A stretch of 64,000 nt of DNA from Naegleria gruberi (lineage: Eukaryota). The notes beneath the pieces are model-generated. The model was not told the DNA's origin and ran no database searches. It saw nothing but the letters and a program-made list of their open reading frames with translations. The stretch's first letter is position 1, and each line of letters starts with the position of its first letter. Both the position numbers and the translations under genes were made by a program. This document shows positions 17,693 to 56,536 of this stretch, one piece after another. The DNA is taken from NCBI GenBank assembly GCA_000004985.1, contig GG738858.1; one strand, written 5' to 3'.

Positions 17693-17758
17693 TACTGTTG
17701 TAAATAAACTAACTTTTCACTTTCGAATAAAACAGATTGATGAAACTTGTCAAAAAAA

Positions 17759-21195: not shown

Positions 21196-24100
21196 TTAAT
21201 TAACTAGTCCTATCGGAACATAGCAAACCAAACCATAAATACCTCCATCAGGAGTAGTAGTAGCCCACCAACCATATGTTGGATAAGATCCCATAAAGTA
21301 AGCATAGGTAATACTATCACCAGATGCTGGATAATAACTACTGTACCAATCCTTATAGACAATGGTACTTCCATCGGACCAAGTTGTGAAGGAGCCTTGG
21401 GAAATTTCATGTCCCTTAGTACCTAAGAAGAAGGCATTGGTTTCATTCTTTGGAAGGAGATTGTTGGCTAAGAATGTCTTTTCTGTGGCACTTTGAATTT
21501 GGACCAATGAAGCGTTTGGATGGAAATACTTGCACAAACTACTCATTGATTCAACGGCATAATAGTTTTGAAGTTTGGTAAAGTAATAACATCTTCCCAA
21601 TGATGTACTACAGCTCATCTTTCTATACCATGGATAATCAACCATGTTGACCTTTGGAGGTAGAGTTGAAGGAGCAGTAATGATACCTGATGGACCTGTA
21701 ATTGTTCCTTGAGAATATTGAGAACCACCAGCAAGGCCAAATTTGATAATACCTTCTGGAATGTCTCCTGCAATCTTGAGTGTGTAAATCTTGTAGGAAC
21801 CTGGTGCAATAGTGTATGAGCTAGGCAATGACAAGTAGGTGAAACCAGTGAGTCCAGTAATTTGATCAGCACCAATGTAAACAGGGAAGCTTGGTGAATA
21901 ATCATGGAAGGCATCTTGGTTGTATCCTGCTTGTAATTCGAGAGTGAATCTAGTAAGTGCAGGTGATCCAGTAGCAACACTAATATTGTATGTGAAAACA
22001 GTAACTGGAGAGGAAGCGTTCAAGAATGTGGCAGTAGAAGAGGTCTTACCCAAATATTTAACAGAGTAACCACTGCTAGCTAATGGAACGAGTACATTGG
22101 TCTTGGATGTGTCAACAATATTACATGAGTTATCAATAATGGTTTGGTAAATGTTACTCAAATCGTTCCAATTTACCAAGACAAGATTATTTTGATCATA
22201 GTTCATCTTTTGTACTTGAATTTGACCATAACTATCCGTTACAGCAGAGCCTATTCCGATAGCAAGCTGTCTCCAATTCCAAACTGAGCCATAGAGTGAC
22301 ATTTCAGCATTATTAGAGCCACCAATTGACCAAGAGTTAATATCAACTGATCTAACAGTGGCATCAGAACATGGATTACAACGAGATCTATCATCATACC
22401 ACGAGCAAACAGTACAATCTGCGCCTGGGAAGCGAGGGCTCTTACAATAGGATGGGGAAACACCATAGTTTCCAGGATTTGATGAATAGGTTGATCTACA
22501 GCTACCACAAGAGCATGGGTCATTTGAGAGACCATCAGTAATGTGAATCAATAACTTTTGAGAAATTGACTTTCTACCAGAGGCCAACATCATATTAACT
22601 GCAGTATTAATACCTGAAATTGAGTTGGTACCAGATTGAATTTGGGCCATATTCTTGATGGCAGTTAAAACACTAGATTGACTTGTACCAGACTTCAAAT
22701 CCAAGTGAGTTGTAATAGTTGAGGCAAATTGAATAATACCAATGTTTGTTCCAGTTGGAGAGATGTTTGATCCAAAGCCTGTTGTCAAATTGGAAGCAAA
22801 GTTCTTCATGTTAACAAAGTTATCAGCTGTAATACTTCCAGAACCGTCAATAACAAATATGATATCCAAGTTAAGACCGCATTGACACTTGGTGTATTGA
22901 ACTGAGACAACAGCTGATGCTGAGGTACCATCTTGATCTGATTGGATACTGTAAACAAACTTTTGAGTATTACAACTTCCAGTAACTGGATAAACTCTGA
23001 TAATTCTATTGTTGGCAGGATCGGCTGGGTTGAGGATGGCTGGAGTGCCTGATGTACAATATGAGGAATCACCTGATGGACAAGAAATTCCAGTGAAAGT
23101 GAATGTACCACCAAGAGAATCATAGTCATTGCTCAACAAACTTGATACAGAGATATCAATATAGGTATTGAATTGTGTTGATACAAAGTCATTGACAGCA
23201 ACAGGAGGAGAAGCAAGAGCTGAAATTCCAACTTGAACATTCTTAGTAATTGGATTTCTTGCATCAGAATCAGAAACAGCTAAAACAAAGTTACAACTTC
23301 CAAGGAATGTTGCTACTCTCAAAAACTTGACTTGATTGCTGGCAATTGTCAAGGATTGAAGAACGGTGCTATTACAAGTTCCAACATCTGCAATACTCTT
23401 CAAAACTAGAGTGTCTGCAGTGTCGGCATCCTTTGAAGATGAGAGAGAAATATAATCAAATGAAATATAATTATTACTAGCTCTAGAAATTGAATAGACA
23501 TAAGTGTAAGCATTCAAGGTTGGAGCTTGATTAGGTTGAGCAATAATAATCTTACAAATGGCAGTTTGTCCAGCAGTGTTTGTCAAAGAATAGGAAGCAT
23601 AACAATCACTATTTGATGATGAGGTACTTGCTGGAGTGTATGTCAATTTACCAGTAGAGGATGAGATGGAACCAACACCATTAAGAGTAGCAGTGTTAGT
23701 GATAGCCATTGTGACTGGTTCAGAACCAACCTTTGCTGTTAAACTTGTCTTTAAAGCATCTTCAAATTGAGTAGCAGCAGAATTCTTTGTAGTGGAAATT
23801 GTGTAATCAAGACATCCGAAAGAATTACCAGTGATTGTAACAGTGTAAGTGTAGGTTGAAGTTAATTGACCATCAGTCAAGGTGAAAGAGAATTGCAAAG
23901 TTCCCAAATAAGTAGTAGCATAAGTAAGCTTTACAGATCCATCAGAGTTCAACAAGACAGAGGCACCAGTGTTTTGAGTAATCATACTAACACTTGAAAC
24001 AGTAACTGTATCACCATCAGCATCACTTGCACCTGTCAATAGATCAGTGAAAGTATAAGTTGGATTGGAATAACTTCTTTCAATGGTGGTAGTCTTTGCA

Positions 24101-27100
24101 CTTCCAGTTGGAGGTGTATTTCTAATGACTACAGACATGGTAGCATAAGTTGCAACTTGAGCACCATCATAACAACTAAACTTAATGGAGTCTGTAACAT
24201 ATCGTGTTCCATTAGAAAGAGTGGTTGTGTAAGAAATTGAGGAGCTTGGTGTGTAAACAAGAGATCCAGTAGTGTAATCCGAAACAGTTGTTGTACCATA
24301 TGAACCTTGACCAACTCCAAACAAAGACAATGAATCGCTATCAGCATCATAACAGTATTGAGAAACAACATTTGTCAAAGACAAAGTGTTCTTCCAACCA
24401 ATAGTTTTAGAGAATGAAGTAGCTTGAGGAGCAGTATTGGTAAAAACAAGGTTAACAGTGGCAATATTAGAGGTGGCAATTTGATCAGTAATGGTGTATT
24501 GGAATGAATCAGTACCTGGACCATTAATGAAGGTATTCATATAGAAAACAGTTACCAAATCACTTTGTAAAACAAGGGCGGTATTACCTGTTGGCAATTG
24601 AGCACTACCAAAGTTAACATTATTCAAATTCAAAGAATTAGAACCCAAACTCATGATAACACCATACATGTTAACAACATTGAAGTTAAGTTGACCATAG
24701 GTAAGGACATGTCCATAGAATGTACCTTGAATACCTGCAGCGCCAACAATCCAGAAAACGTTCAAGTAACTAGCACCATTCTTGAAACTCCAACTAAAGT
24801 TAGCATTCAAATTTGTGGTGGCAACAAAGATAAAAAGACCACTTCCACTCAATTCAATTTTACCATTTCCATTGAGACCTTGAGAGAAACAATATACACC
24901 TGGAGTAAATGACAAAACACCTGAAGATGGGAAGTTTTGATCAAGAGAGGCAACACAAGACTTTTGTGAAAGATATTGGTAGAGATTTGAGGCAGATGTA
25001 ACAACAGATGAGTAGGCAGCGTTGTTGACACTCAAAGTACCAGTTGGTTTAAGAGCTTGAGCAGTGAAACCAGCAGTGGCAACGCTTCCAGGAACAACCA
25101 AATTGGCAAAGTTATTACAAATGGTTGAACCCTTAGAAATAACAATGTAATCTCCGATACCATTGTATGAACTGACTAAGCTTGATGGATATAACTTGTT
25201 AATATAAATATAATCACCATCAACATCATAATCGTTCAAAACAGGTTTCAAATACAAGGTATTATTGGTCCAGTGTTGAGTGAATGTATTATCAACAGCA
25301 ACAGGAGGAGTATTAGTAATGGTAATGGTAACAGTATTGGTAACACTTGAGAAACCATCAGTTACAACATAGGTGAATGAAGTAGTGAACCCAGCAGTTA
25401 GAGGAACTGGTGTGTACTTGACAAAAGTGGAATTAACAGAAGCAACAGCACCAGTATTTGGTTGAGTGAATGAAACAATGGTCAATGAATCACCATCAGC
25501 ATCAGTAACTCCAGACATCAAATCAATACTGAGGCCACTTTGAACCTTAGCCCAGTGACGACTGAATGTTAATGGAGTTGCTGTAGGAGCGCTATTGGAA
25601 ATAGTAACAAAGATTCCCTTTGATGCAGAAACTCCCATTCCATCAGTTACAGTATAGTTGAAGAATTGTGATGCAGAGTTTCCATTAGAATTGGTGAATG
25701 TGAATGATTTCTTGTCACCACTCAAAGCAACAGTACCTGCACTTGGATTAGTGAATGATGAAATAACAAGATAGTCTCCATCCTCAGTATCAGCATCAGT
25801 TGGCTTGAGAGAATCAGCTCTACCAATAACTGGAATAGAAATTGAGGAAGTGTGACCAGATACAACAATATCTTTAGCAACTGGAAGATTGTTATAGATA
25901 ACAATGCTGAATGTTGCACTTGAAGTGGACCACCCATCAGTGAATGAAACAGTAACGGAATCAGTACCAGTGTAAGCACTATTGACCTTATAGTTAATGG
26001 TGTTTCCTGAACCAAGAGAAGCAACACCAACCAGTGTCTTTGTGACAGCAGTTAAGGTAACAGCATCACCATCAGCATCCTTAAGATAGGAAGAAAGATC
26101 AATAACAGTATTACTCAAAACAGTTCTCCAGTGATATTTGAAAGCTGCAGTAGTATTGGCTGTTGGAACACTATTCAAAATTGTAATGGAAACAGTACCA
26201 GTGACTGTATCTCTTCCATCAGTGATAATATAACTGATTGGGTTGATACTACCAACAAAACCACTGGAAGGAGTGAATTTTACATTTCCAGAGCAAGTGA
26301 CACTACCTTGAGCTGCAGTAACAGATGAAGAGCATGATTGTAATGATAATGAATCTCCATTAGCATCTGAAGAAGCAGAAACAACTTCAAATGTTAAACC
26401 ATTCTTAGCTGAAGACCAAGAACCGACAAATGATTGTGAATTTGTTGTTGGAGCAGTATTGGTAACAGTAACAGTAACAGTTGATGTTGAAGTGGCAATC
26501 TCATCAGTGATTGTATAGTATACAGTATCTGTAGATGGAGCAGTTCTTGGATAGTAAGTAATGTTGGTTGAGGTAAATGTTGGTGACAAAGGAGCTAATG
26601 AACCATAAACATTAGTAACTCTCAATGGATCAGACTCAGCATCAGTATCGTTAGCAACAACATTCAAAGTGTAAGAAGCAACGTTCCAGTGAGTAGTGAG
26701 CTTATCTGGAACAGCTACTGGGGCAGTATTGTAAACAATCAAGTTGACAGTTGTGGTAACTTGACCGTTTGAAGCACCATCAGTAACAATGTACTTGAAT
26801 GAAAGTGAACCCACAAAGTTTCCAGAACCAAGGATTTTGACAGACTTGCTATCCAAAACAGTTACGGAACCAACACTTGGTTGAGAAGCAATTGAAACCA
26901 AACTCAATGAGTCGCCATCAGTATCATAATCAGCTGGAGCATAATTTAAGATATCAATTTCAATACCTGCCTTGAAAGTTCTCCATGGAACTGAAATAGT
27001 CTTGGTTTGAGAAGTTGGAGCGTTGTTTACAACAGTTACAGAGATTGAACTAGTTGAGCTCTTCATAGAGTCAGAAACTCTGTAGTTAGCAGTGTAAACA

Positions 27101-30100
27101 CCAACAGTGTTGGATGCAGTGAATGTGGCAATATTTGAAGAAACAGACAATGATCCCTTACTTGGTTGAGTATCTGCTGAGAAGGACAAGTTATTGACAT
27201 CCAATGGATCAGCATCAGAAGTGTAACTAGTCAAGTTGAAAGCAACACTTTGTCCGAAATGGACTGTACCTGTAATTGCTTGAGCTGTTGGGGCAGTATC
27301 ATAAACAGTCATGGTGAAGACAATGTAACTATTACCACTGCTTGTGTAATATTTCAATGTAAATTGTTCATTACCCAAATAGGATCCAGAAGGTTTATAG
27401 GTAACAGTCTTCAAATCAGAAGAAACACTTACTATACCCCCGTGGTTTGGATCAGATAATGGTGTTTGATCGAGAGTTGTACCAGTCTCTGAAAGCTTAT
27501 CGAGAGGTAAGAATACATATCCAACACTTGAGTATCTGAAATGAACATTGTAGTATTGTTCAGTACTGGATGGAGAAGTTGATGTAATGTTAATCTTCAA
27601 GTAACCAATTGATGTAGTCAATCCATCACTAATGGTATATGGAACAGTGTCAACACCCAATGACTTGACTAAGCTTGGGTCAGGGAAATAGACAATTTTA
27701 CCGTCAGATGGTTGGGCAGCACCACTGCCAAACATGCTTGAAGAACCTACATTCTCAATCTTCAAATATGGAACATCTTGAATGTCAGAATCAGTTGCTA
27801 AAGAAATAACGTCAATAGTGATACCATATTGAATGTTACCACCAGAGTAGGTCAAGGTAAGATTGGCAGCAACTGGAGCATTATTGTAAGAGTTTGTGGT
27901 CAATGTGGCAGAAGATGACTCAAAACCATCTGAGAGAATAACCTTACAAGCATCACTTGATGCAAATGCACTTCTCAAATATTTAACACCCTTGATTCCA
28001 TTTCCTAAATCAACAAGGGAGCAATAAGAGCTGGAACCAGTGTTGAATGAGAGTGAATAATAATCACCATCAGCATCTGTGAGAGTATTGTAAACAGTGT
28101 AAGAAACTCCATTTGTTTGAACAGTTCTCCAATGAGCAGATGTAGATTGATCACTGATAGATGGCTTATTAGTATTGACAATGTTGACTGTAACAGTGGA
28201 AGCTGAGGAGTAGAGAGCTCCATCATATGCCTTGTAAGTGAATGTCTTGGCTCCAAGGGTTGGTGGATTCTTCAATGTATATCTGAGTAAATTATTTACA
28301 ATGCTTAATGATCCTTCACTAACAGATGATGGGTTAGTAACAGTGAGGGCATCATTATCAGCATCAATATCATTAGACAAGACATTAATATCAACGAATG
28401 AAGTATTCCATTGGACAGTAACAGTATCACTATTTGCAACTGGTGCGTTATCAGTACAGTTGACTGTAACAGTGTTGCTTGCGGTTTCAATACCATCAGT
28501 GATTCTGTAAGTGAAAGAGTAAACTCCAATAGAAGCACTTGATTGTTTGTAAACCAACTTGGATGAAACAACAGAGGCAGATCCTTGTGATGGAGCTGAA
28601 ACAATTGGTGTGGTATCAAATGCCAAACTGTCACCATCAGAGTCCGAACATTCACTCAAAATGTCAATGGAAATACCAGAAACACAAGTGGACCACTTGG
28701 ATACAATATTCTTTGAAACTGCTGTTGGAGCGTAATTTTGAATAGTAACAGGATAGGAGGCAGTCTTACTGATCCAACCATCTGTGTAAGAAATGGTCAA
28801 TTGAGAAGCTCCTAACTTGACAGTTTTTGGAAGATTCCAAACAATAACCTTATCAGAATTAATAGTTGGAGTACCATAAGAGCTGTCATATGCAGAAATT
28901 GAGAAAGATACAGAATCACCATCACTATCGGAAATACTTGAAGAAATATCAATAAGAGATTGATTCTTGGTCCAGTGAATACTTGTTGGGAATGGTGTGG
29001 CAATTGGAGCGGAATTTTGTACATCGATATTCCATTTGGCAACACTATTCAATAAGCCATCAGTAAAAGTAACAGTTACAACACATACACCAGTACTTCC
29101 TGCTGCACTAGTGAAAGTAACAGTGGAGGTGGTGTAGGAAACAGAACCACAACTAGAAGTTGAGGCTCCCTTAACAACAACTGTATCTTCAGAGTCAGAA
29201 TCAGTGACGTTGAACCAAGCAATAGCATTCTTAGTATATCCATTGCTTACATCAGTAAAATGTCTTGTTTCAGAGATATCATTTGAAACTGGAGCGTTAT
29301 CATAAACTATAACATTGACAGTGACAATAGAAAAGCTTGAACCATCAGTGATTTGAACCTTGAATGAATCACTTCCCAAGTATCCAGCATTTTGCTTGTA
29401 AATAACGTTTGGAATTGTAGTAGCATCACCATTTGAGATTGTAATACTACCGTGTGCTGGAGCTTGATCTGGAGTGGTAACAATTGACAATGAATCACCA
29501 TCGTTATCAACAGGTTGAGCAATACTGAAAATGTTAATTACAGAACCAGTGGATTGAGTGCTCCAGTGAACAGTCTTTGAGATGGTCTTATCTTGTGGCT
29601 TGTCATTATTTGTAACAGTAATAGAAACAGAAGCAATATTACTTGTTGAAGGACCATCAGTACAAGTGTATGTAAAGTTTTGAACTCCCAAACCAGAAGA
29701 ACTTGGAGTGAAGGAAACAAATGACTTGGATGAATCCAAAACCAAATTACCAGCAAATCCAGAAGAAGTAGTGAATGATTTGATAGCGATTGGATCAGTG
29801 TCAGCATCAACATCATTGGTAAGGAGATTTAATTGCTTGTTGGAAATTCTCCAATGCATTGTATATGAATCGTCATTGGCAACTGGTGCAGTATTAGTAA
29901 CTTCAACATTGACACTACCAACAGTTGATTTACCATAATCAGAAACAACATAAGTGAATGAATCAGTACCAACAAAGTTATTGGCCTCGATAGAAGTATA
30001 GACCAAACCATCAGTTCCATCACCAAGTGTAACACGAGAGACTGAACCCTTAGAACCTTGAGTGAATGAAGCAATATGGAGTGAATCACCATCAGCATCT

Positions 30101-32550
30101 GTACATGATGTTAATACAGGAATGTTAACAGATGATGAACGCCAATGAGTACGAGCAGTGACATCACCAGCAACTGGAGCAGTATTAGAAACAGAAACAG
30201 TTACAGTGGCAGATGAAACAGAAACATCCATACCATCTGTACAAGTGTAAGTGAAGGTATCATTACCAACGAATCCATTACTTGGAACGTAGAGAATGGA
30301 CTTTCCACCTTGATAAATTGAAACAGTAGCACCATTATTGGAAGTATAGGAAACAGAGTTAACAGTGAGAGAATCACCATTGATATCCTTGTCATTATCG
30401 AGAACATTGATAACAACACTTCTATTCCATGAAACAGTTGCTAAATCATCAACTGGAACAGGAGCATCATTGACAACATGAACAGTGACAACAGCCTTAT
30501 TGGAAACTAATTTTTCAACATCAGCAACATCAAATTCGACATAGTCAACATAAACTGAAGACAAAGCAGTATAATTAGCATAATCATTACCAGGTGTGAA
30601 ACTAATAGACAATCCATACGTGCTTTGAGAAAAACTATTATAAGTAATCTTATCACCATTTGGATCATAACTGTTCAAGATTGGATTAATAGAAGAAGTT
30701 AAACCCTTTGAAACTGTAAAGCTTGAAGCAACAGCAACAGGAGCAGTATTAACAACCTTAATAATTACATATCCAGTACGATTGAATGTGCCTTCAGTGC
30801 TTCCATCGGCATTGGTATTAATGACAATGTATGAAGCAACATCTTCACCTGTGAAATCATGAGCTGGTTCATAAAGGGTATTGTTATCGTCTAGTCTGGT
30901 AATTTTACCTCCATTCAAAGTGGTAGCAGAGACAAAATTAAGCTTCAAGACATCACCAGATTGACTGTAATCATTGCTGATAACATCGACAGTGACTTGT
31001 CCATTCTTTTGACAAGTTGCTGTATCATTGACTGGAATAGGAGGAGAAGGAACTACATTGATAGTAATAGTGGCAAGTACAGAATCAACACCATCACTAA
31101 CTTTGACTTTGAAGGATTCAGAGTAGACAACACCTTGCTCTGGAGTGTAAAGAAGAGTATAGGCATTGCTATTAACTTGATAAAAGTCACCACTTGGATA
31201 GTAAACGCTTTTAACAGAAGTAACAACAGACAAGGAGGAAGAACCACGAGTCAATTTGGTAGTTGGAGTCAACGTAACAGTATCCAAGATATCTTCATCA
31301 GAGAAAGTCAAATCAATGAGATTATTCTTTGAATTCTTTGGAACATCAATAGTCAAATCCTTTGCAGAAGGAGGCAAGTTGACTATTTTGATAAAAACAA
31401 ATGAAGAGCTTGTGAGTGCTCCATCTGTAATAGTGTATTCGAAAGCATCACTGGCAGGAGTTGAAATGAATGGCTTTGGAATATATTGCAAGAAAGCACC
31501 TTGAGCACCAACAAGAACAGTACCAGTAGAACCGAGACCAGTAGAACCTGAAACAATTGTAATATTATCACCATTGATATCATAATCGTTTGACAAGACA
31601 CTCAAAGTTGCCATGGTATTCTTATTAACAGTATAGGAATCTGGCTCAGCAGTTGGGGCATCATTTGCAACAATAATCTTGAGAGTAGCTGTTACATTGG
31701 AATAACCATCTGATACAGTATAGTTAAGCTGCTCTTCATTATTAAAGCCATAAGCAGGAGTATAATAAACAAACAATTCATCAAATGAAATGGAACTTCC
31801 CTCAGAAACAGAACCACCCAATGAAGTAATAAAAAGTGTATCTCCATCTACATCAGAAGTCATTCCTCCATTTTCAGTAACAAAGTTGAAAACATCAAAA
31901 TTATTATTCTTTGAATTCTTATTGACTGTATATTGCAAATCAACAACATCTGGAGCACGATTCAAAACTTGGACATGGATTTTTGCTGTGGCAACAGTCC
32001 ATGAATTGGTGATGGTATATTCTAATGTATCATTTCCTGCAAAACTTCCACTTGATGTGTAAACAATTGTATTCTTGGCAGATAACACAGCTTTACCATG
32101 AGCAGGTTGAGTAATATTGAGAATTGTTAAATTTGAAGATCTAGTATCATAATCATTAGAAAGTGGATAGAAATTTGAAGGCACTTTCTTATAAACTTGA
32201 TAATAATCATCCACAGCAACAGGATTGTAAACTGTTGCATTCAAAGTTACCATCAAGATGGTAGCAACAACACTGGCAACAACAAGACTTGAAATAACAG
32301 CACCTATAACAGTTTGACTAATAGTGCCTCCCTATTGAAGAAGATGAAAGGATTCACAAACATGATATTCGAAACAATGTTAAAAATTACAGAAACATGA
32401 AGAACCATCATGGAACATTATATTTCCATCAATACGCATTAGCAAAGGCTATTCGAAACTAAGTATCCTACAAACCTTCAAGAGGGAAATATTGGCTGTA
32501 AAGCCTGTACGAGACACAGTTGAAGAACCCAACACAGTACCTGCAGGCAT
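21196..32550 (-). CDS. Giant (about 3,711 aa) predicted type II membrane adhesin-like protein. It has an N-terminal cytosolic tail plus signal-anchor TM, about 25-30 tandem cadherin-like/bacterial-Ig-like repeats, an embedded DUF3494 ice-binding-like beta-helix, a VWA domain and a C-terminal C-type lectin domain. Exon 1 is 32476..32550, intron 32332..32475, exon 2 is 21196..32331.
   Basis: An uninterrupted 11 kb ORF. Exon 1 (MPAGTVLGSSTVSRTGFTANISLLK, gtttgt donor) splices to GGTISQTVIGAVISSLVVASVVATILMV (TM) in frame. The repeats follow the pattern VxNxAPVA..D..T.HW…ID(V/I)L.ND.D.DGD.L.I… and end …Y.VTDG…S…V.V.V. The DUF3494-like segment runs PGVYCF…LFIFVATTNL…NGASYLNVFWIVGAAGIQGT…GHVLTYGQL, at about 24560..25160. 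The VWA/MIDAS motif is DIIFVIDGSGSI…HITDGLSND, at about 22480..22900. The CTLD runs CYYF…WSDGS…WY…C at 21196..~21640. Confidence 0.8.
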
Positions 32551-35402: not shown

Positions 35403-35473
35403 GCATTAGTAGTGTAACGGTATCATACCAGCCTTCCAAGCTGGTGACCCGGGTTCGACTCCCGGCTAATGCA
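35403..35473 (+). tRNA. tRNA-Gly (anticodon UCC)
   Basis: 71-nt cloverleaf. Acceptor GCATTAG/CTAATGC. Anticodon arm CCAGC-CTTCCAA-GCTGG, giving TCC. T arm CCCGG-GTTCGAC-TCCCGG, discriminator A. Closely parallels eukaryotic tRNA-Gly-TCC. Confidence 0.85.
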
Positions 35474-35527: not shown

Positions 35528-36868
35528 ATGAGTGAAAATCATGATGAAACATTGACCAACAATTTGCTTGCATCGGAAGATGATGACAAAATGACAACTT
35601 CAACAGTTAATGCTGATAATGGCGGAGAACAACAAGATGATGAATATTTCCAATCTTATTTTGATTGTTCAGTTCATGAATTGATGATAAAGGATAAACC
35701 AAGAACTGATGGTTATTTAAAATCAATTGTGGAGAATGCTCATGTTTTTAAAGATAAAATTGTGATGGGTGAGTGATTTTATATATGAATTTATATTGAA
35801 TTTCATAGATGTTGGTGCTGGAACTGGTATTTTGAGTTTATTTGCTGCTAAATATGGTGGTGCTAAGAAAGTTTATGCTGTGGAAGCAAGTCCTATGGCT
35901 AATTTTACTAAATTATTTGTTGAACATAATGGATTGCAAGATGTGATTGAAGTTATTCATGGAAGAGTTGAGGAAATTGTTCTTCCTGTTGAAAAGGTTG
36001 ATATTATTATTAGTGAATGGATGGGATTCTACTTGTTACATGAGGTGAGTGGTTTTGGAGTTTGTGAATTTAAAAATGATTGAAATTGTTCTTCTTAATG
36101 CTTCAAATTATTGCAAATTTTAATGGAAAATTATGGAAAATTACGATGAAATGGAAAATGTTATTTAATTAGGGTATGCTCGACTCTGTTCTCTATGCTA
36201 GAGACAAGTATTTAAATCAAGATGGTTTACTATTCCCTCAAAAGGCCATTATTTACATGAGTCCATGTGAAATGAATAATTTATACAAGGAAAAGGTTAA
36301 TTTCTGGGAAGATGTTTATGGATTTGATATGAGTGCAATCATGTCTATGGCCATGTATGAAATTTCCTTAAAACCAAAGGTTGACATTATTTCACCTTCT
36401 CAACTTTTGCTTAAAAATCCAATTGTTGTGAAGGAATTGGATTTGGGTAAAATTACTGTTGATGATTTGAAATATATTGATTGTGAATGTCACATTACTC
36501 TGGATAATATCACTGATGAAGAAGCTCAAACACATGTTCATGGATTTTGTGTATGGTTCGATGTTGTTTTTGAACCAAACAAGGTCATTCTCTCAACTAG
36601 TCCAGCTGCTCCACCAACTCACTGGAAACAAACAATTATTATGCTTCCTCAAGCTATGACCATTCCAGCTTCCAAGAAAATCCCAAAGACTACTCTTGTC
36701 ATGACACCAAGTGATGAAAATCCAAGACATTACGATTTGTCACTCGATATTCCAGATGCTTTCAAAGAAGATTTTGAAGATGACGAAATGGATCTCAAAG
36801 ATATTATTATGAATCAATACGCAGCAGAAATGGAAGATGTTGATGAGGAACAAGAAGAACAAGAATAA
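35528..36868 (+). CDS. Protein arginine N-methyltransferase, type I PRMT1-like. Exons 35528..35768, 35809..36044, 36173..36868.
   Basis: [24 protein letters not shown] (the YFxxY and 'double-E' region context). Motif I, spliced across the intron, reads KIVM|[10 protein letters not shown]. Also [11 protein letters not shown]|[14 protein letters not shown] and the THW loop (PPTHWKQT). All introns keep the frame (gtgagt donors). Confidence 0.8.
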
Positions 36869-36943
36869 ATAGATTCTGTCTGTTGAACAGTCAAGTAAGG
36901 CTCAAGCCCAAAAAGTGGTTATTATTATCAAAATTTTGTTGGT

Positions 36944-38964
36944 TTATTGGAATTTACTCAAATTGGAATATATTTCAGACTGAGAAATAAGAGCTTTGGA
37001 CAAATCTAGAGTGTCAGATTGGTTATTATTGTCAGTTGAGCTTAGAGAAGAAGAATTAGGGATGAATGGATTTGTTTGTTGTTGGAATGTACTATTGTTG
37101 TTGTTGTTGCCTATTGTTGAATAATAATTCTGGAGATAGTTATTTTGAGGTGTCATATTATTCATATTGTTCACTTGTTGGTTTTGATAGTAGGTAGTAG
37201 TTGGGTTATTATTGTTGTTATTTGTCATTACGCCTCTATTGATGATGGCCAACAAATTATTGTATGCATTATCTCCACCATTATTTGGTACGTAATTACC
37301 ATTATTAAAGTAGAATTGTTGAGCATTTTGTTGAGTTGGAGCATTATTGAATGTAAAGTTTTGATTATTTACAGGAGAGTTGATGAAGGTATTATTGTTT
37401 GGATAGGTAGGTGTCATTTGCATGTTTTGAGGTGGTGGAGATACATCATTCATCTTTCTCTTCTTTCTATCAATTTCAATAGCATTCACTTGATGTTGCA
37501 CGAAATTGTAATTCATGTTACCCATATTTGAAGTGTTTGGCATACTATTTCCATATTGGTTATTAGTGAACATGTTTGGCTGTTGAACATTTTTCATATC
37601 CATTTGTTGTTGTTGTTGTGGATACAAATTATTATTGTTGAGAGTAACATGTTCTACGCTTCTCATCTTTCTCTTTCCATTAGAGTTGTCAACTTGCATT
37701 TGTTGTTGTGATTGATTCATAATAATTGGAACACCATTATTATTTGTAACAATTGTAGTTGGAGTAGAATTCTGAGAAGAAGAACCACCCTTAACTTGTG
37801 ATCCTCTTCTTTGTGGAGTTTTACCATTGTGCACAACTGATCGCATTTGTCCCATGATGGCACCACTCTTAACATGTGTATTGGTAATCACTTGATTGTG
37901 GAATGTAATTGAGTTGTTTTCAGAACCTTCTGATTCTTGCATGGTATCTGAATTGTTATCGAAATTACCAGAAACTGCACATTTTGGATCCATTTTGATT
38001 TGTTGGATTTGCTTTTCAACATTGGTAATATCATTCTTCATGGTCATGATTCTATTCTCAACATTTTGTCTTTTAAGTGGATCGATAATAACTTTGCTTT
38101 GTTTCAACAACTTTTCAAGTAAAATATTCTTCTCATTAATTTTAGATTTCAAACTAAAGTAAAGTTAGTGAGAGGAGGATAAACATGTATTGAATGGCAT
38201 GCTATTACTTACGATTGTATCTTTCTGTATGGCCATCTTGGAATACCAACAGCTGTTTACAAATCCAATACAAAACGGTTCATTATTCCAAAAAGTATTA
38301 AAGTTGACAAATTTAGAAAAGTAATTTTCACAAGGGGAAATTAATAATTGTAACCATGACACAACACGGGAAAATACTTACTTCTACAAACTCTCTTCAG
38401 TTGAGTCAATGAAATATTCAGCATGGCAGCCACATTCTTGATTGGAGTCTCAAAGTGAGGTCTCAACTGATCAACCGTAAATGTGATTGGAGTATATATG
38501 TTCTTAGCAGAATTCTCTTGATCATTAGGTGAGTTATTCTTTACTTCCTTCTTATTATTTTGCTTTTGTTCAATTGTAGCAGTACTTGTAATATTATTGT
38601 GGTTGAGTAACATGTGATCGATGAGTTCATGTGAAGGCATGTGAGATGGTATTATTGCATGTTGATGATGATGAATACTGCTGCTATTACTACTATCCAT
38701 ATCAACTACATGATCATTCACTGAACCATTGTTAGTACTTGATAAAAATTGATTAGGAAAACCTTCATTAGCCAAATCCATAATTTGAAAATCAATTCCC
38801 TCGAGAGCTTCATCTAAACACTGTTGATGAGTATTAATTGTCTGACTATTACTATTATTTGAGTTCATAATCAAATTAGAAAAGGAATTGAGTGAATTAT
38901 CCAAAGATGACGAATCCTCCATGCCACTATGAAAATTGTTTACATGAAATTGATTTTGTTGCAT
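36944..38964 (-). CDS. RWP-RK domain transcription factor, Asn/Gln-rich. Mapped exons (minus strand): 38392..38964, a 40-nt mini-exon 38213..38252, and 36944..38153.
   Basis: The spliced product reads …FETPIKNVAAMLNISLTQLKRVCR|TVGIPRWPYRKIQ|SLKSKINEKNILLEKLLKQ. This is the RWP-RK signature (LKxxCRxxGIxRWPxRK) followed by the usual leucine-zipper-like helix. Donors are gtaagt and acceptors are ag, with phases consistent. Probable additional 5' exons are listed separately. Confidence 0.7.
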
Positions 38965-39126
38965 GGTTGACGTTAGGCTATTATTATGATTGAAATGTTG
39001 TTGTTGTTGCTGATTATGGCTTGTATTACCTAGACAATTATTACCAACAGTATTATTATTATTAGTAGTATTGATAGTATTGATAGATTATTATTATTAG
39101 AAGTAGTTAATGTTGTATTATTATTA

Positions 39127-40273
39127 TTATTCATAGAAAGGCTTGTTACTGGTGTTTGATGATGATGATGACAATGCGGCAGTAGCATTACCAATAACAG
39201 TACTGCTGTTGTTGTTGCTGTTGCTGTTATTACTACCTACAACAACATTACCTGAATGTTGTTGATAAGAGTTTGATTGCGCGCTCATCAATAACTGGTG
39301 ATGTTGTTGTTGTTGTGGAGATTGGAAAGATTGAGTGGTGGAGGAGGTAGTTGAGTGGTTTTTTCCATATTCTTGTTCAAAGGCAATAGATGACTTTTCT
39401 GAGAGAATCAAATGATGTTGTGGTTGGTTATTGTTGAGGAGAGGACCTTCAATCAGTACAAGATTGTTACTGGAGGATGAATTAAAGAATGGATGATGAT
39501 GTTGCATGAGAATGGAATGTTGTTGATTAGCAGTAGCAGAACTGGTAGTAGTTGAATTGTTGTTATTATTATTATTATTATTGGATGGTGAATTTGTTGT
39601 CATTGATTGTTGTTGATGATGATTAACATGTGATAATGATGATGATGAGGAAGAGGCTTGATTTGATCGATTTCTTATAATATTATTATTGGCCAATTCA
39701 GCTGTTGCAACTGCAGTTGTTGTGAGGTTATTAGTGGTGGAGACAATTTTTCTTCTTCTTCTACTTGTTGCGAATCTTTTTCTAATAGAGCAATGTCAAT
39801 AATGAATGGAATGATTGAGTATTGTGAGAAGTAGTAGTAATGGAGGTATTTTGTGTAGCTGATGCTGATGGTAGTGCTTGTGCGTTAATATTATCGGTTG
39901 CAGAGAGACTAGTTAAACCAGAAAAAGTATCTATTCTCTCAGATGGGATTGTTTTGCGTTCAATTTTTGACAAATGACTGCCAGAATGAGAGTTGTAATT
40001 TAATCCTTGTGTAGTGAATGTAGAGGAATTTCTGGATTGTTGGTGCGATGCGGTATGTGCTTCTGATGGGTAAGTGTCGCTCACTGTCATTCCATCAATG
40101 GAATATGAGTGCCATGAAGGTTGACCAAAATTTTGATATTGCTGAATACTTTGGGAATTAATGTGCATGTTGAAATCTGTATTGTTATCCTCAGTTTCAA
40201 ATGGGTACATATCGGTTGTTTCTTTGGTTAAATTCCTGATAAGGTTTCGGTTTGTTTCGTTCGGATTATTCAT
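39127..40273 (-). CDS. Probable upstream N-terminal exons of the RWP-RK gene. Two ORF segments, 39782..40273 and 39127..39696, of poly-N/Q/S low complexity.
   Basis: Same strand, no intervening stop-rich gap, and there is a 1.2-kb ORF-free upstream region (40274..41543) typical of a TF promoter. The exon joins were not resolved. Confidence 0.25.
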
Positions 40274-41543
40274 GTGTTTAGGATTAGATTTTCTTCAAAT
40301 TAAATTACTTGTTATTATTAATCTATGTTAAAGATATAAATGTTGATATCAAAATGTGGAAAGAGTTGGTTTCGAATACTACTTTCCAATAACTATCGTT
40401 GTATTGAACTGTTTTTCTATGATTTGTTTTGAATGTTGACTGTAGTAACACAGATTGCAGGAGGATCAAAATCTTTGTGAAATTCGAGTCAATCCAGTAG
40501 GTACGACCTGATTCTTGTTTGTGGAAGAATTAAACAAATCAGGAACTGGTGTTAGAAACAAGTTTTAGATTTCTGTTGTTTTTTTTGAATGCACTCTCAA
40601 CAAGGTAAAATATCTTGTAATTAAAATGTGGTGCGTCTCTGTTTGATTATTGTTGAGTTGGCATGACTCAAGTGCGGATGGAAACTAAACAATTCGAATA
40701 AAATGAAGAACAACATGAAAGAAAGGTTGGATGAGACGCCATCATTGTGAAATTTAAACAAATTGTATTGCATAAATTTACTCAAAAAGGGTTATTGTAT
40801 GACAAGTGGAATGAACTATCACTGAGATTAGTTTGGATTCTCTTTTTTAAGATTACCGGCTTCTTGTTAGGAATTTGGATGATAAATTGTCTTATTGTAT
40901 CAAGTCTAATTAATTGGTCATGAATGCAGTTCATTTTCATATATGAAAAATGTTTCTTGACAAGGGGTTTCAGTTACAGTTTCTGTTTCTTCACATTGTT
41001 ACAATACGTGATAATATATTTAAACCTAGTCTTGTTTGGTTCACAGCTTTATCAAGTCAAGGCTCTCTATTTTCATATTTATGGCCCTCAAATTAGTTTC
41101 GGTGATTTTACTTGCCTTCCTTATCATGATTTACAATTCATAGTGGCAGTTGACTGGATGATTATCCTTCATTACTGTAGCACGGTGTTATCGAAATTTT
41201 AATTGTAGTGTACCAGGTTAATGTGTCCACACTACATTTCAATAATTAACAATTGGTAATGTGGTTTGTAACATTGGTGGCCGCTCTCACAAAAAGTACA
41301 TTGTTATGTTTTTGATATTAGTTGCGTTGAGGCTTGAAAAAGACTTACTTTTATTGGACGATGATTACGAAGGGTTTTTAATATTGTAACTTTTGTACAA
41401 ATCAGATTCTTCTCTGAGGTCTTTATTTGAAAGATTTCGGTGCGCAGGTTTCGTTCTGTGCTGTGTTGCACATGTGGCATAATTTATATTTGTTTCTTGC
41501 TTAATTTGAGAAATTATAATTTATTTTTGATGTTTGAATGCAT

Positions 41544-42930
41544 TTAGAATGAATTATCTTCATCTACAGTTTTTGGTGTTTCAGATTGAGGAGTAGTGGT
41601 TGTTTCGTCTACAGTTTTTGGTGTTGTTTCAGTTTCCAAATTTGGTGTTGTTTCAGAAGGTGTGGTGGTTGGCTTAGTTTCTTCTTTAACATTTTCAGAT
41701 AAAACCTCTTGTGGAGTTTCTGGTTTTGGAGTTTCAACAAGCTTTTCAGAAGATGGTTCAGTAACTTGTGGAGATTGAGTTTCTTCTTCTTCCTTAAGAG
41801 TGGTCAATTCAGTAATGGTCTTTTTTGGATCTCTTTCACGATTATATGGTTTGAAATGATACTTTGTCAAAAGGCATGAACCAATACTTTGGAATCTGGA
41901 AGAAATAAATGTTTGATCTGTTTCAACATTAATCTTGAAAACATCCTCATTATTTTCAAAGATTGAAATCATGGTATTGAATGCATGTGAATAAGTAGTG
42001 TCAGGTCTATTTTGTGAATATTCCTTAAGAGTCTTTTCAATAAGCATGTCAAATAATTGGTCACTTTTAACTTTCTTACTAACTTTGCTATTTCCTAAAC
42101 AATCCACTCTGTAAGCTAAATTTTCAAGATGATCCTTTGCAATATTTGCAAATTTATAACCCAAAATTCCAGTACTATCATTACGAACACAAACTTGATT
42201 ATCATGAACAATGTAATTTGGTGAAATACATGATTGAATTGAAAATAGAGAACATTCGGCATTTCTTGGACATTGTTGACATGGATACCAAGAATATTCT
42301 TCATTATTTTAAATTATTGAATATTTTAAAAAACATGTTGAAGTTGAATTTTAAAATTCGAATAGTATTTAAAAAATCACACCAAAAGGTCATTTTCAAT
42401 AAATTCATTAAAAATAAATTCCAAACACTTTCGAATAAAAGAAACATACCATTACAATAAGGTCTATTTGATGAAACAAACAAAATTGCAACCACAGCAA
42501 CAACAATTAACAAAATGGTTGAAATTTTCGAATTGGTAGATTTAGCATCATCAGAAACATCCTTCATTTGCTTGACTAATTTAGTCAACTCAATCACAGT
42601 TGCACTTTGTGATTCTCTCCTAGCAATAAACGCAGCTTTTCTCGGAGTAAAGCTTGGAGTTGAACGACTATCAGGAATATCTTCTTCATCATCAAAAATT
42701 GCTGATTTTTCATGGATTAAATCTTCTTCTTCGTCTGTATCGTGAAGATCCATCATTTCATCAACTTTGGCAATTTCTTCATCCGGAATTTCTTCAATTT
42801 CTTGTTGTTGGCCAATTTGTAAGAATTGATTAAAGGACAAGTCAGAAATTTCTTGATAAATTATTGCTGGCTTGCTTTTTGATGGGGTTTTGAAGGGACT
42901 GCCAAAATCATAGCTAGTTGATGATGACAT
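41544..42930 (-). CDS. Single-pass membrane protein of unknown function. Exons 42450..42930 and 41544..42298.
   Basis: An acidic cytosolic N-terminus, then a TM helix (ISTILLIVVAVVAILFV). After a 151-nt AT-rich intron (gtatgt donor) comes a Cys-containing domain (YSWYPCQQCPRNAECSLFSIQSCISPNY…) and a Thr/Pro/Glu-rich tail. The frame was verified across the junction. Confidence 0.5.
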
Positions 42931-54949: not shown

Positions 54950-56536
54950 CTAGTTGTCAGAGTTATGTGCAACTTTTTTGAGATATTTCTCTAGTCGTTT
55001 GGTTTTCTTTTCAGTCATATTGTTCCCAAACAATGATAAATATTCCAGTTTTTTCATTCCTAACAAGTGTTGAATACAATCATCAGTCAGATCATTAGAT
55101 TGTAAGTCTAGATACTTCAAATTTGGCAACCCACTAATCCATTTGATTGCGTTATCGTCTAGACCACAGAAATTCATTTCTAGATAGGTCAAATTGATCA
55201 AATTCTTGTGCCAATATTTAAAACCTTCAACACTTTCAACTAGGTCAGTAAGTGACAAATGAAGACTGGTTAGTTGTTTCATTAAGCCAAGTTGTTTTAG
55301 CACTTCACTACAACAACCAACACATTCTGAAATATCCAATATAGTTAACCTTGGTAATTTTGAAATTGATTTTACCCCTTTAACAGATATTTGTCCACCA
55401 CTAATATTTAGATATGTCAACTCCTTTAAAGAGCTTATTGAGTCTAAAAAATCATCACAAATTTCATTTCCATCAATAAAAAGAGTTGTCAGTTTTGTAA
55501 GAGATGTCAAATATTTTGCTCCACTACTGGTGATTTCATGTTGAGAAATATTTAAATATGTAAGTTGTGTAAGGGAGGCAACTAGTTTAGCTGCCTCATC
55601 ACCAAGTGCATCAATAATTGAATGGTTGCCAATATCAAGTACTCTCAAATTCTTCATAGAGCTAATCCACTTAAGTCCTTCATTTCCAAAATCATTCTTT
55701 GATATATAAAGTTCTGTCAGGTTTATCATTTTAGTAAGGCTTTCGCAGGATTCACTTTCAATCCAAATTCTGTTAATATGGAGGGTTTGCAATGATTCCA
55801 TAGAAGAAATAGGCAGCAAACCTAATGGTCCTAAATCATTATTTCCAATATCTAAAAATGTTAATGATTTTAATCTACTAATAATGTCAGCATCTTCAAA
55901 AGTCAAATTACAGTTATTCACATCCAAACTTGTCAACTTTTTCAAAGAACTTAAATGTTCTACATCTTGGTTCTCCAAATGCACTGATGAAATATTTAAA
56001 CTTGTTAAATTTTCAATCATTCCAATATATTTCACACCATTAGCGCATTTAGTCTTACTAACATTCAATACAGTCAAATGTTTCAAAGATTTCAAACACT
56101 TGACACCTTCCCTGTAACAATTTTGTCCACTCAAATCTAATTCTCGTAAATTATAAAATCGTTTCTGAATAATTGTAAAAATCAAAAGATTATATTTTAA
56201 GTGCAAACATTCTACCCGATCAATATATTTCTGATGACTTTGAGAGAGTTTCTTCCATTCTCTCCTTTCACTAATCCGAAAATTAAATTTAATTCTCGTC
56301 ATAATAATGTCAAACCACTGTCGGCAAACTAGTATACAATTTGTTAGTACTTGAACTGAATCTAAATATGTGATCACCTCAAAAGTCATATCACTGGAGA
56401 GAAAATCAATATTATATTCTAGTTCTTCTTTTGAATCTGAAATGTATTGTTGATCAAGGAGCAATTTTAGATGGTTTTGGTTTTTGATTTTCTTAAGCTT
56501 GGAAATGATGGAATCAAAGGTGCGTTTTCGTTTCAT
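54950..56536 (-). CDS. F-box / ribonuclease-inhibitor-type LRR protein (ATG at 56536; the ORF track starts at an upstream TTG)
   Basis: The F-box-like motif is DMTFEVITYLDSVQVLTNCILVCRQWFDII. It is followed by more than 12 RI-like LRRs (LTSLDVNNCNLTFEDADIISRLKSLTFLDIGNNDLG…). Confidence 0.6.
   Translation of the reverse strand: MKRKRTFDSIISKLKKIKNQNHLKLLLDQQYISDSKEELEYNIDFLSSDMTFEVITYLDSVQVLTNCILVCRQWFDIIMTRIKFNFRISERREWKKLSQSHQKYIDRVECLHLKYNLLIFTIIQKRFYNLRELDLSGQNCYREGVKCLKSLKHLTVLNVSKTKCANGVKYIGMIENLTSLNISSVHLENQDVEHLSSLKKLTSLDVNNCNLTFEDADIISRLKSLTFLDIGNNDLGPLGLLPISSMESLQTLHINRIWIESESCESLTKMINLTELYISKNDFGNEGLKWISSMKNLRVLDIGNHSIIDALGDEAAKLVASLTQLTYLNISQHEITSSGAKYLTSLTKLTTLFIDGNEICDDFLDSISSLKELTYLNISGGQISVKGVKSISKLPRLTILDISECVGCCSEVLKQLGLMKQLTSLHLSLTDLVESVEGFKYWHKNLINLTYLEMNFCGLDDNAIKWISGLPNLKYLDLQSNDLTDDCIQHLLGMKKLEYLSLFGNNMTEKKTKRLEKYLKKVAHNSDN

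What the first reader, a model, noticed from the sequence alone, without database searches (positions are those of the whole stretch)
36944..38964. RWP-RK transcription factor with its DNA-binding motif split over a 40-nt mini-exon
RWP-RK factors regulate nitrogen responses and gametogenesis in plants and algae. Outside Archaeplastida they are restricted to a few protist lineages. Here the signature is split: LKRVCR| is in one exon, TVGIPRWPYRKIQ| is a 40-nt exon (38213..38252), and SLKSKINEKNILLEK begins the last exon. The gene has an unusually long (~1.2 kb) ORF-free upstream region and an N/Q-rich body.
Basis: partly seen in the sequence, partly recalled or inferred. Interest (0 to 1): 0.5.

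Follow-up and report, generated by a model that had tools for sequence, protein, structure and literature searches.

The report
Naegleria RWP-RK gene, 40-nt micro-exon
This is an ordinary, intact gene of the amoeboflagellate Naegleria gruberi for one of its roughly 39 RWP-RK transcription factors; the 40-base exon carrying the name-giving motif is real and conserved, but the family and this exon structure are already present in published annotations of sister species.

Summary
The finding is correct in its core and ordinary in its significance. On the minus strand, 38964→36944 encodes a 610-aa protein from three exons: 583 nt, a 40-nt micro-exon (38252-38213) and 1,210 nt. The introns are 129 and 59 nt, both with GTAAGT donors. 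Splicing in the micro-exon raises the Pfam RWP-RK score from 44 to 74 bits and completes the profile. Skipping it, or retaining either intron, gives an immediate stop.

The window is Naegleria gruberi, because a neighbouring 378-aa ORF is identical to XP_002679216.1. The N. fowleri orthologue has the same 40-nt exon (8 synonymous changes, 1 conservative change, introns unalignable). Its published gene models contain exactly these junctions. Willaertia magna shares both intron sites and splits the unit further into 22 + 18 nt. Acrasis kona has no introns here.

RWP-RK is already documented as the third-largest transcription-factor family in Naegleria, with 39 genes in N. gruberi. The biological role is unknown. 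The likely mechanism is a helix-turn-helix-like DNA-binding domain followed by paired helices.

The parts
38382..38964 (-). Coding exon A (583 nt; residues 1-194 plus the first base of codon 195). It has a low-complexity N-terminus and the first about 33 residues of the RWP-RK domain (FTVDQLRPHFETPIKNVAAMLNISLTQLKRVCR). The ATG at 38964 is the first in-frame ATG, but the true start is not proven.
   Evidence: The domain part is 75% nucleotide-identical to N. fowleri, z=21.8.
38253..38381 (-). Intron 1 (129 nt; GTAAGT...ACAG; phase 1, after 'CR' plus 1 nt).
   Evidence: The same site and phase occur in N. fowleri (236 nt) and Willaertia magna (60 nt). It is absent in L003 and Acrasis. There is no sequence conservation, z=-1.0.
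38213..38252 (-). The 40-nt micro-exon encoding (T)VGIPRWPYRKIQ(S). It covers the end of helix 3, the RWP loop and the first turns of the following long helix.
   Evidence: Against N. fowleri there are 8 synonymous, 1 conservative (V/I) and 0 radical changes, z=8.4. Structural mapping uses the AF2 model of relative P0123.
38154..38212 (-). Intron 2 (59 nt; GTAAGT...CACTAAC...TTTAG; phase 2, inside the Ser codon after KIQ).
   Evidence: The same site and phase occur in N. fowleri (189 nt), L003 (44 nt) and Willaertia (57 nt). There is no sequence conservation, z=-0.5.
36944..38153 (-). Last coding exon (residues 208-610 plus stop TAA at 36946-36944). It holds the post-motif helices, a conserved block, two basic clusters and an N/Q-rich tail.
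   Evidence: It is orthologous to P0001 / L001 7095-8700.
38150..38481 (-). Genomic span of the Pfam RWP-RK domain (residues 162-209), interrupted by both introns.
37982..38152 (-). Two amphipathic helices (about residues 210-229 and 233-261) separated by a conserved Asp-Pro kink and ending in the conserved 'IK.DPK'. This is the presumed dimerisation or extension element.
   Evidence: AF2 on this window segment gives H2-21 and H25-53 with pLDDT 84-96. The heptad check is only moderately supportive. Conservation across heterolobosean orthologues is shown.
37805..37891 (-). Conserved block VITNTH...GQMRSVVHNGKTPQRR (residues 296-324), of unknown role.
   Evidence: Conserved with N. fowleri, and partly with L003. 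No Pfam match. AF2 confidence is low, so it is probably disordered.
37451..37468 (-). Basic cluster RKKRKM (residues 437-442), a candidate nuclear-localisation signal. A second cluster, KRKMR, is at 37661-37675.
   Evidence: RKKRKM is conserved in N. fowleri. The NLS role is inferred.
39130..39795 (-). Upstream open frame U2 (222 codons, N/S/Q/H-rich). It is in the same frame as exon A and separated from it only by eight in-frame TAA codons inside an AAT/TAA microsatellite (39129-39090). It may be a 5' coding extension or a decayed one. This is unresolved.
   Evidence: It resembles the N. fowleri N-terminus only in composition. No Pfam match.
39785..40294 (-). Upstream open frame U1 (170 codons; ATG at 40273), in a different frame from U2. 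Its status is unresolved.

Best explanation
The locus is an intact nuclear gene of Naegleria gruberi for one member of that genus's expanded RWP-RK transcription-factor family. It is the orthologue of N. fowleri g7587 (strain 986) / g1269 (strain 30863) and of Willaertia magna KAL9648254.1.

The pre-mRNA carries two short canonical GT-AG introns that bracket a 40-nt internal exon. Only when both are removed is the RWP-RK domain reconstituted in frame.

Shown here: gene structure, domain identity, orthology, and conservation of the intron sites.

Inferred from the family and from predicted structure: the protein enters the nucleus through its basic clusters. It binds DNA through a small helix-turn-helix-like unit, whose third helix is ...SLTQLKRVCR. 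The RWPYRK loop and helix start are encoded by the micro-exon. It pairs or extends through two conserved amphipathic helices that end in IK.DPK. The N/Q-rich low-complexity regions would recruit the transcription machinery.

Its target genes and biological role are unknown.

Introns 1 and 2 predate the Naegleria/Willaertia split. Willaertia split the 40-nt unit further into 22 + 18 nt, one environmental Naegleria-like lineage (L003) lost intron 1, and Acrasis has none.
For: Gene model: frame-consistent splicing with GTAAGT donors. Any alternative (exon skipping, or retention of either intron) stops within 1-13 codons.

Domain: PF02042 scores 74.2 bits, E 7e-21, full profile coverage, against 44 bits without the micro-exon.

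Species: the ALG9 neighbour is closest to N. lovaniensis (70-72%), then Willaertia (60-62%), then Acrasis (44%). ORF 16556-17692 is 100% identical over its full length to N. gruberi XP_002679216.1.

Orthologue L001 (N. fowleri-like): the same three exons and a 40-nt exon with 8 synonymous and 1 conservative change. Exons are conserved and introns are not. The upstream neighbour is syntenic.

Published models: the domain string, including both junctions, is identical to Nfowleri986_g7587.t1 and Nfowleri30863_g1269.t1/.t2, and the domain starts at residue 290 in both the 986 model and mine. Those models were made with Augustus using transcript hints.

Willaertia: my splice reconstruction reproduces the annotated protein exactly, with introns at the same two sites and phases plus one more.

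Family size: 26-27 RWP-RK genes in N. fowleri and 39 in N. gruberi.

Structure: the AF2 model of relative P0123 shows three short helices, an RWP loop and a 45-residue helix at pLDDT about 97. AF2 of the window's own post-motif segment shows two confident helices.
Against: No transcript data for N. gruberi itself were available, so the junctions rest on comparative and annotation evidence.

The 5' end is unresolved. Two long open frames lie upstream on the same strand, one of them in frame with exon A.

DNA binding, dimerisation and nuclear import are inferred and not shown. No RWP-RK structure is solved, and the fold search gave no significant match (best E 2.1). The heptad pattern is only moderate.

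The orthologue tree rests on about 100 residues without support values.
Confidence: 0.9

Rival explanations
1. The gene is longer at its 5' end. The 222-codon open frame U2 (39795-39130), and perhaps U1, belongs to the same coding sequence. It would be joined to exon A by an unconventional intron, or it is separated only by an assembly or microsatellite artefact. The protein would then have an N-terminal extension comparable to the 289 pre-domain residues of the N. fowleri model.
For: U2 is in the same frame as exon A and has the same composition. An open frame this long was never reached in 2,000 simulations. The interruption is only eight TAA codons inside an AAT/TAA repeat. The N. fowleri pre-domain region is 133 residues longer than in the ATG-38964 model. 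Published N. fowleri isoforms imply alternative 5' structures, with the domain at residue 59, 242 or 290. The strand-specific composition skew continues to about 41.5 kb.
Against: None of the 21 in-frame GT-AG combinations has the GT[AG]AGT donor seen in all seven verified introns. Similarity of U2 to the N. fowleri N-terminus disappears under composition-corrected statistics. Orthologue L003 has only about 115 pre-domain residues. U1 and U2 are in different frames with no donor between them.
Confidence: 0.3
2. The upstream open frames are not part of this gene. They are either a separate, lineage-specific low-complexity gene or the decaying remnant of a formerly longer N-terminus, and translation starts at 38964.
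For: ATG 38964 is the first in-frame ATG after the stop cluster. No consensus intron is available. There is no Pfam match and no composition-corrected homology. N. fowleri has a separately called 159-aa ORF in the equivalent interval.
Against: Sharing a frame with exon A is a 1-in-3 coincidence. Open frames this long are not expected in non-coding DNA of this composition.
Confidence: 0.55
3. The micro-exon works as a splicing-level switch. Regulated skipping, or retention of a flanking intron, would give a premature stop and a truncated product without the RWPxRK loop and helices. That would turn the factor off during a life-cycle transition.
For: Skipping or retention stops translation within 1-13 codons. 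The split has been kept since before the Naegleria/Willaertia divergence in otherwise intron-poor genomes with about 2 exons per gene.
Against: There is no evidence of alternative isoforms at these junctions. The published N. fowleri isoforms differ only at the N-terminus. L003 and Acrasis do without intron 1, or without both introns, so the split is dispensable. Conservation of intron position needs no function.
Confidence: 0.08
4. The 40-nt 'exon' is a chance match inside one long intron, or the locus is a pseudogene.
For: None beyond the absence of direct RNA data for this genome.
Against: The micro-exon gives a 30-bit gain and completes the profile. Its substitution pattern is purifying, and the introns are unconstrained. 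The junctions are identical in published N. fowleri and Willaertia models. The 610-codon frame is intact.
Confidence: 0.02

Closest known systems
Naegleria fowleri RWP-RK gene Nfowleri986_g7587 / Nfowleri30863_g1269 (Herman et al. 2021, PMC8296547, Table S3), which is locus L001 here
   Same: It is the orthologue. It has the same three-exon layout, with a 40-nt micro-exon and introns at the same sites and phases. The core is about 60-66% identical, with identical GIPRWPYRKIQ. It shares the post-motif helices, the VITNTH...PQRR block, the RKKRKM cluster and the upstream neighbour.
   Different: Its introns are longer (236 and 189 nt against 129 and 59). Its pre-domain region is 289 residues against 156. 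The block holding this gene and its neighbour is inverted relative to Bud13-ALG9-CFAP97. The low-complexity regions cannot be aligned.
Willaertia magna hypothetical protein KAL9648254.1 (ABK040_009258), locus L025
   Same: It belongs to the same orthogroup, with the signature PIKNVAALLNISLTQ...RWPYRKIQSLKS. Its introns sit at exactly the same two sites and phases, and all donors are GTAAGT.
   Different: A third intron inside the Pro codon of RWP|YRK splits the 40-nt unit into micro-exons of 22 and 18 nt. The protein is much shorter (308 aa) and lacks the DPK ending. The genome is 27% GC.
Acrasis kona RWP-RK domain-containing protein KAL0490266.1 (locus L026) and environmental relatives P0185 and P0178
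   Same: They share the subfamily architecture: RWP-RK, then RKIQS..K/RI.EK, helices, and IK[EN]DP.
   Different: The Acrasis gene and P0185 have no introns. The intron state of P0178 is undetermined, because it is known only from a 906-nt contig that the ORF fills. They are short proteins of 237-298 aa without long N/Q-rich tails.
Plant RKD proteins and Chlamydomonas/Volvox MID (minimal RWP-RK transcription factors controlling gamete or egg-cell identity)
   Same: They have an RWP-RK domain as the only recognisable domain. They are presumed sequence-specific DNA-binding regulators (family knowledge; PMC7399023, PMC4086717).
   Different: No phylogenetic affiliation was tested here, and no functional data exist for any heterolobosean member. 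The conserved post-motif helices, the IK.DPK ending and the N/Q-rich tails of this gene are lineage-specific.
Plant NIN-like proteins (NLP/NIN; nitrate-responsive RWP-RK factors)
   Same: The RWP-RK DNA-binding domain.
   Different: NLPs carry a C-terminal PB1 domain and an N-terminal nitrate-responsive region. Pfam finds neither here.

Membership tests
RWP-RK domain family (Pfam PF02042) | Profile match above the curated gathering score, over the whole domain | tested here: met
   74.2 bits against a cut-off of 29.3, E 7.4e-21, profile positions 2-49 of 49, residues 162-209.
RWP-RK domain family (Pfam PF02042) | The near-invariant motif R-W-P-x-R-K preceded by L-K-R-x-C-R | tested here: met
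   LKRVCR-TVGIP-RWPYRK. C, W and P are invariant across 22 aligned relatives, and the flanking R/K positions are at least 90% conserved.
RWP-RK domain family (Pfam PF02042) | Helix-turn-helix-like fold followed by a long helix | tested here: inconclusive
   This rests on prediction only. AF2 of relative P0123 gives H31-37, H42-51, a loop and H59-103 at pLDDT about 97. AF2 of the window's own post-motif segment is helical. No solved RWP-RK structure exists to compare with. Foldseek against the PDB gave no significant hit; the top non-significant hits are HTH DNA-binding domains.
RWP-RK domain family (Pfam PF02042) | Sequence-specific DNA binding and transcriptional regulation | not testable with these tools
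   Needs DAP-seq, EMSA or reporter assays.
NLP / NIN-like subfamily | C-terminal PB1 domain and conserved N-terminal (GAF-like, nitrate-responsive) region | tested here: not met
   The Pfam scan of the full 610-aa protein at E<=1 returns only RWP-RK.
RKD / MID subfamily | Phylogenetic grouping of the domain with plant RKD and algal MID sequences | not tested
   No reliable plant or algal reference sequences were obtained. Published trees place non-plant sequences in separate subgroups (PMC7399023).
Heterolobosean orthogroup of Nfowleri986_g7587 / W. magna KAL9648254.1 | Domain signature ...PIKNVAA[ML]LN[IV]SLTQ...RWPYRKI[QH]S[LY]KS, grouping apart from other RWP-RK paralogues | tested here: met
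   Alignments and NJ tree. Paralogue groups (P0123/P0182, P0002, N. fowleri g4821, g7036) are distinct. No bootstrap values were computed.
Heterolobosean orthogroup of Nfowleri986_g7587 / W. magna KAL9648254.1 | Shared intron positions and phases (phase 1 after CR; phase 2 in the Ser codon after KIQ) | tested here: met
   Identical in N. gruberi, N. fowleri and Willaertia. Intron 2 is also in L003. Neither site is used in 18 more distant loci, though that screen was biased against split motifs.
Heterolobosean orthogroup of Nfowleri986_g7587 / W. magna KAL9648254.1 | Conserved gene neighbourhood with N. fowleri | tested here: met
   The upstream neighbour (window 41999-41844) matches L001 3357-3509. 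Bud13, ALG9 and CFAP97 are nearby in both, with one inversion.
Micro-exon (internal exon of 51 nt or less, spliced by canonical introns) | Short internal exon flanked by GT-AG introns, frame-preserving only when included | tested here: met
   40 nt, GTAAGT donors, CAG and TAG acceptors, with stops if it is skipped or an intron is retained.
Micro-exon (internal exon of 51 nt or less, spliced by canonical introns) | Inclusion demonstrated in mature mRNA of this organism | not testable with these tools
   No N. gruberi transcript data are held. The only support is indirect, through transcript-hinted N. fowleri models and the annotated Willaertia model.

The most novel reading that the evidence does not exclude
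In this heterolobosean RWP-RK orthogroup, the few codons for the RWPxRK loop have been kept on their own micro-exon since before Naegleria and Willaertia diverged: 40 nt in Naegleria and 22 + 18 nt in Willaertia. These genomes otherwise average about two exons per gene. The reason would be that inclusion is regulated. Skipping the 40-nt exon, or retaining an intron, truncates the factor. Skipping the 18-nt Willaertia exon would, in frame, remove YRKIQS and give a motif-less variant. That would amount to a splicing switch on transcription-factor activity during amoeba, flagellate or cyst differentiation.
Probability: 0.08. Interest if true: 0.4.

Novelty: already known. Interest (0 to 1): 0.15.

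Why it matters
It matters little beyond annotation quality.

RWP-RK factors are already reported as a large family in Naegleria, with 39 genes in N. gruberi (PMC8296547). The same micro-exon junctions are present in public gene models of N. fowleri and Willaertia magna.

The practical point is that a 40-nt exon is easy for gene finders to miss. If it is missed, the model loses the RWPxRK motif and everything downstream.

There is a modest evolutionary curiosity. Within one orthogroup, the intron states are none (Acrasis), one (L003), two (Naegleria) and three (Willaertia, with 22- and 18-nt exons). This gives a compact, datable example of intron gain and loss around a highly conserved motif in intron-poor excavates.

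The function of every heterolobosean RWP-RK factor remains untested. The nitrogen and gametogenesis roles known from plants cannot be transferred to this gene.

Tried and rejected
1. A full-length protein search found only two homologues, because low-complexity words swamped the word index. A core-only profile worked better.

2. Exact look-ups of window proteins found no record. The source genome's own annotation is apparently absent from the protein collection, so the official N. gruberi model for this gene could not be inspected.

3. I first inferred that intron 1 was a recent Naegleria-specific gain, because L003 and about 20 distant relatives lack it. I rejected this once Willaertia showed the same intron site and phase and the tree placed L003 inside the Naegleria group. 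Loss in L003 is more parsimonious.

4. I tested whether this gene is the RWP-RK factor reported as up-regulated in mouse-passaged N. fowleri (g4821). It is not. The domain sequence differs, so that gene is a paralogue.

5. I tried to join upstream ORF U2 to exon A by an intron. There are 21 in-frame GT-AG pairs, but none has the local GT[AG]AGT donor consensus, so this stays unresolved.

6. U1 and U2 have no homology to the equivalent N. fowleri interval. Only compositional similarity is seen, and it vanishes with composition correction. They have no Pfam match.

7. The metagenome scan for more orthologues returned only distant RWP-RK loci. That screen is biased against split motifs.

8. The PDB sequence search and Foldseek gave no significant hit.

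I used a relative and a contiguous window segment instead.

10. Plant gene-family papers did not state intron positions inside the domain, so no comparison with plant intron sites was made.
Full report
**Observation**

The region was read on both strands. The gene lies on the minus strand.
- ATG at 38964.
- '...LKRVCR' ending at 38382.
- A 40-nt segment at 38252-38213.
- 'LKSKINEK...' starting at 38153.
- Stop TAA at 36946-36944.

Joining 38964-38382, 38252-38213 and 38153-36944 gives an uninterrupted 610-codon frame. The introns are 129 and 59 nt. Both begin GTAAGT, and they end CAG and TAG; the second has a CACTAAC branch-like element. Skipping the 40-nt exon, or retaining either intron, stops translation within 1-13 codons.

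**Is it RWP-RK, and is the micro-exon more than chance?**

Pfam PF02042 matches the spliced protein at 74.2 bits (cut-off 29.3), covering profile positions 2-49 of 49. Without the micro-exon the score is 44 bits and the match ends at position 34-35. The 40 nt therefore contribute about 30 bits and complete the domain. It is the only RWP-type motif in the 64-kb window.

**Host organism**

The window is about 33% GC and gene-dense, with few short introns. An Alg9-like neighbour is closest to Naegleria lovaniensis (70-72%), then Willaertia magna (60-62%), then Acrasis kona (44%). ORF 16556-17692 is identical over all 378 residues to the N. gruberi F-box/Rab protein XP_002679216.1 listed in Table S8 of Herman et al. 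2021. The window is therefore N. gruberi nuclear DNA.

**Comparative test of the splice model**

The protein search returned an ORF (P0001) that starts inside an intron and continues as the orthologue of the last exon. Its 19-kb contig (L001) has the same layout:
- The first exon ends '...LKRICR' plus 1 nt.
- A 236-nt intron follows.
- Then a 40-nt exon encoding (G)IGIPRWPYRKIQ(S).
- Then a 189-nt intron.
- Then 'YKSKINEK...'.

In the 12 complete codons of the micro-exon there are 8 synonymous changes, one V/I change and three identical codons. Exons are conserved well above shuffled controls (z = 21.8, 8.4 and 8.4), while both introns are at chance (z = -1.0 and -0.5).

L001's ALG9 is 88% identical to N. 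lovaniensis. Its spliced domain string is identical, across both junctions, to the published N. fowleri models Nfowleri986_g7587.t1 and Nfowleri30863_g1269.t1/.t2, and the domain starts at residue 290 both in my model and in the 986 model. Those models were made with Augustus using assembled transcripts as hints. The upstream neighbour is syntenic. The Bud13-ALG9-CFAP97 group is nearby in both genomes but inverted relative to the RWP-RK block.

**History of the introns**

- **L003.** This environmental orthologue lacks intron 1 but has intron 2 at the same site and phase, 44 nt long.
- **Exhaustive search.** It found 1,073 clusters with E<=1e-3. It also recovered the Willaertia magna and Acrasis kona members of the same subfamily.
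- **Willaertia.** My reconstruction reproduces the annotated protein exactly. Introns sit at the same two sites and phases as in Naegleria. A third intron inside the Pro codon of RWP|YRK gives micro-exons of 22 and 18 nt.
- **Acrasis and a relative.** Both are intron-less in this gene.
- **Tree.** A rough NJ tree of the roughly 100-residue core gives (((N. gruberi, N. fowleri), L003), Willaertia), with Acrasis-type sequences and other paralogues outside.

The 40-nt unit therefore predates the Naegleria/Willaertia split, and L003 most parsimoniously lost intron 1. More distant RWP-RK loci never use these two sites. Several break immediately after RWP[YH]RK instead. That screen was biased against split motifs.

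**What is already known**

Herman et al. 2021 (PMC8296547) report RWP-RK as the third-largest transcription-factor family in Naegleria: 26-27 genes in N. fowleri and 39 in N. gruberi. They also note one paralogue up-regulated after mouse passage. That paralogue, g4821, is a different gene. RWP-RK proteins are also numerous in stramenopiles and present in Amoebozoa (PMC7399023).

**Upstream region**

It is not ORF-free. Between the neighbour's stop (about 41544) and ATG 38964, the gene's strand holds open stretches of 170 codons (40294-39785) and 222 codons (39795-39130). None of 2,000 composition-matched simulations reached 222 codons.

The 222-codon frame (U2) is in the same frame as exon A. 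It is interrupted only by eight TAA codons within an AAT/TAA repeat. However:
- No in-frame GT-AG pair has the GT[AG]AGT donor shared by all seven verified introns.
- Similarity to the longer N. fowleri N-terminus is only compositional.
- There is no Pfam match.

The 5' end remains open.

**Mechanism (inferred)**

No RWP-RK structure is solved. AF2 of a full-length relative, P0123, predicts with pLDDT about 97 three short helices (the third being ...SLTQLKRICR), a loop carrying RWP, and a 45-residue helix. By alignment, the micro-exon encodes the end of helix 3, the loop and the first six residues of the long helix.

AF2 of the window's own residues 209-324 gives two confident helices separated at a conserved Asp-Pro, followed by disorder. 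The heptad periodicity is moderate. Foldseek found nothing significant; the top non-significant hits are bacterial and homeodomain HTH DNA-binding domains.

Two basic clusters, KRKMR and the conserved RKKRKM, are candidate nuclear-localisation signals. No PB1 or other domain is present, so this is not an NLP-type protein. The most likely mode of action is nuclear, sequence-specific DNA binding by an HTH-like unit, with helix-mediated pairing and low-complexity activation regions. Targets and physiological role are unknown.

**Verdict**

The upstream remark is wrong. The feature is a correctly read but ordinary member of a documented, expanded family in a published genome, and its exon structure is already implicit in public annotations of sister species. 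The small series of intron states across heteroloboseans (0, 1, 2 and 3 introns, with 22- and 18-nt exons in Willaertia) is a minor curiosity.

Noticed in passing
window 21196-32256 (-): A single uninterrupted 3,686-aa ORF made of about 22 bacterial Ig (Big_9) and about 19 bacterial cadherin-like repeats plus a VWA domain. Local GC is 37-38.5% against about 33% elsewhere. It is a giant adhesin-like protein with bacterial-type domains in a Naegleria chromosome, and a possible old lateral transfer.
   Followed up: partly
window 39130-39795 and 39785-40294 (-): Two long open frames (222 and 170 codons) of N/S/Q/H-rich sequence lie between the RWP-RK gene and its upstream neighbour. They have no Pfam match and no composition-corrected homologue. 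The first is in frame with RWP-RK exon A across an (AAT)n/(TAA)n repeat.
   Followed up: partly
window 36944-42164 versus L001 2964-16293: The block holding the RWP-RK gene and its upstream neighbour is inverted relative to Bud13-ALG9-CFAP97 between N. gruberi and the N. fowleri-like contig. N. fowleri also has an LRR gene between RWP-RK and Bud13, where N. gruberi has a PRMT gene and tRNA-Gly on the other side.
   Followed up: partly
L025 1733-1754 and 1823-1840 (Willaertia magna JBEGDK010000109.1): The Willaertia orthologue carries two consecutive micro-exons of 22 and 18 nt, separated by a 68-nt intron that cuts inside the Pro codon of the RWP motif. All three introns are 57-68 nt with GTAAGT donors.
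   Followed up: yes
window 19112-19230 (-): A dispersed 5S rRNA gene (Rfam 103 bits) sits among protein-coding genes. tRNA-Phe(GAA) is at 14276-14348 and tRNA-Gly(TCC) at 35403-35473, just upstream of the PRMT gene.
   Followed up: no
window 35528-36870 (+): A protein arginine methyltransferase-like gene with two short introns (40 and 128 nt, both with GTGAGT donors) converges on the RWP-RK gene. Only 73 nt separate the two stop codons, so the 3' UTRs must be very short or overlap.
   Followed up: partly
window 59789-61654 (+): A 621-aa protein consisting of 12 DUF4116 repeats (Pfam 498 bits). Two F-box/LRR genes are at 17747-19009 and 54950-56629.
   Followed up: no
L004 / L005 (JGI contigs); proteins P0126, P0127, P0132, P0133: A second RWP-RK paralogue group (KKKK-ITFEDLQ..FE.PIKEAA...RWP[HY]RK) has an intron immediately after the RK codon (phase 0). 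That is 8 nt upstream of the Naegleria intron-2 site. The same 'RK|' break is seen in some plant-like metagenome loci (L015, L021).
   Followed up: partly
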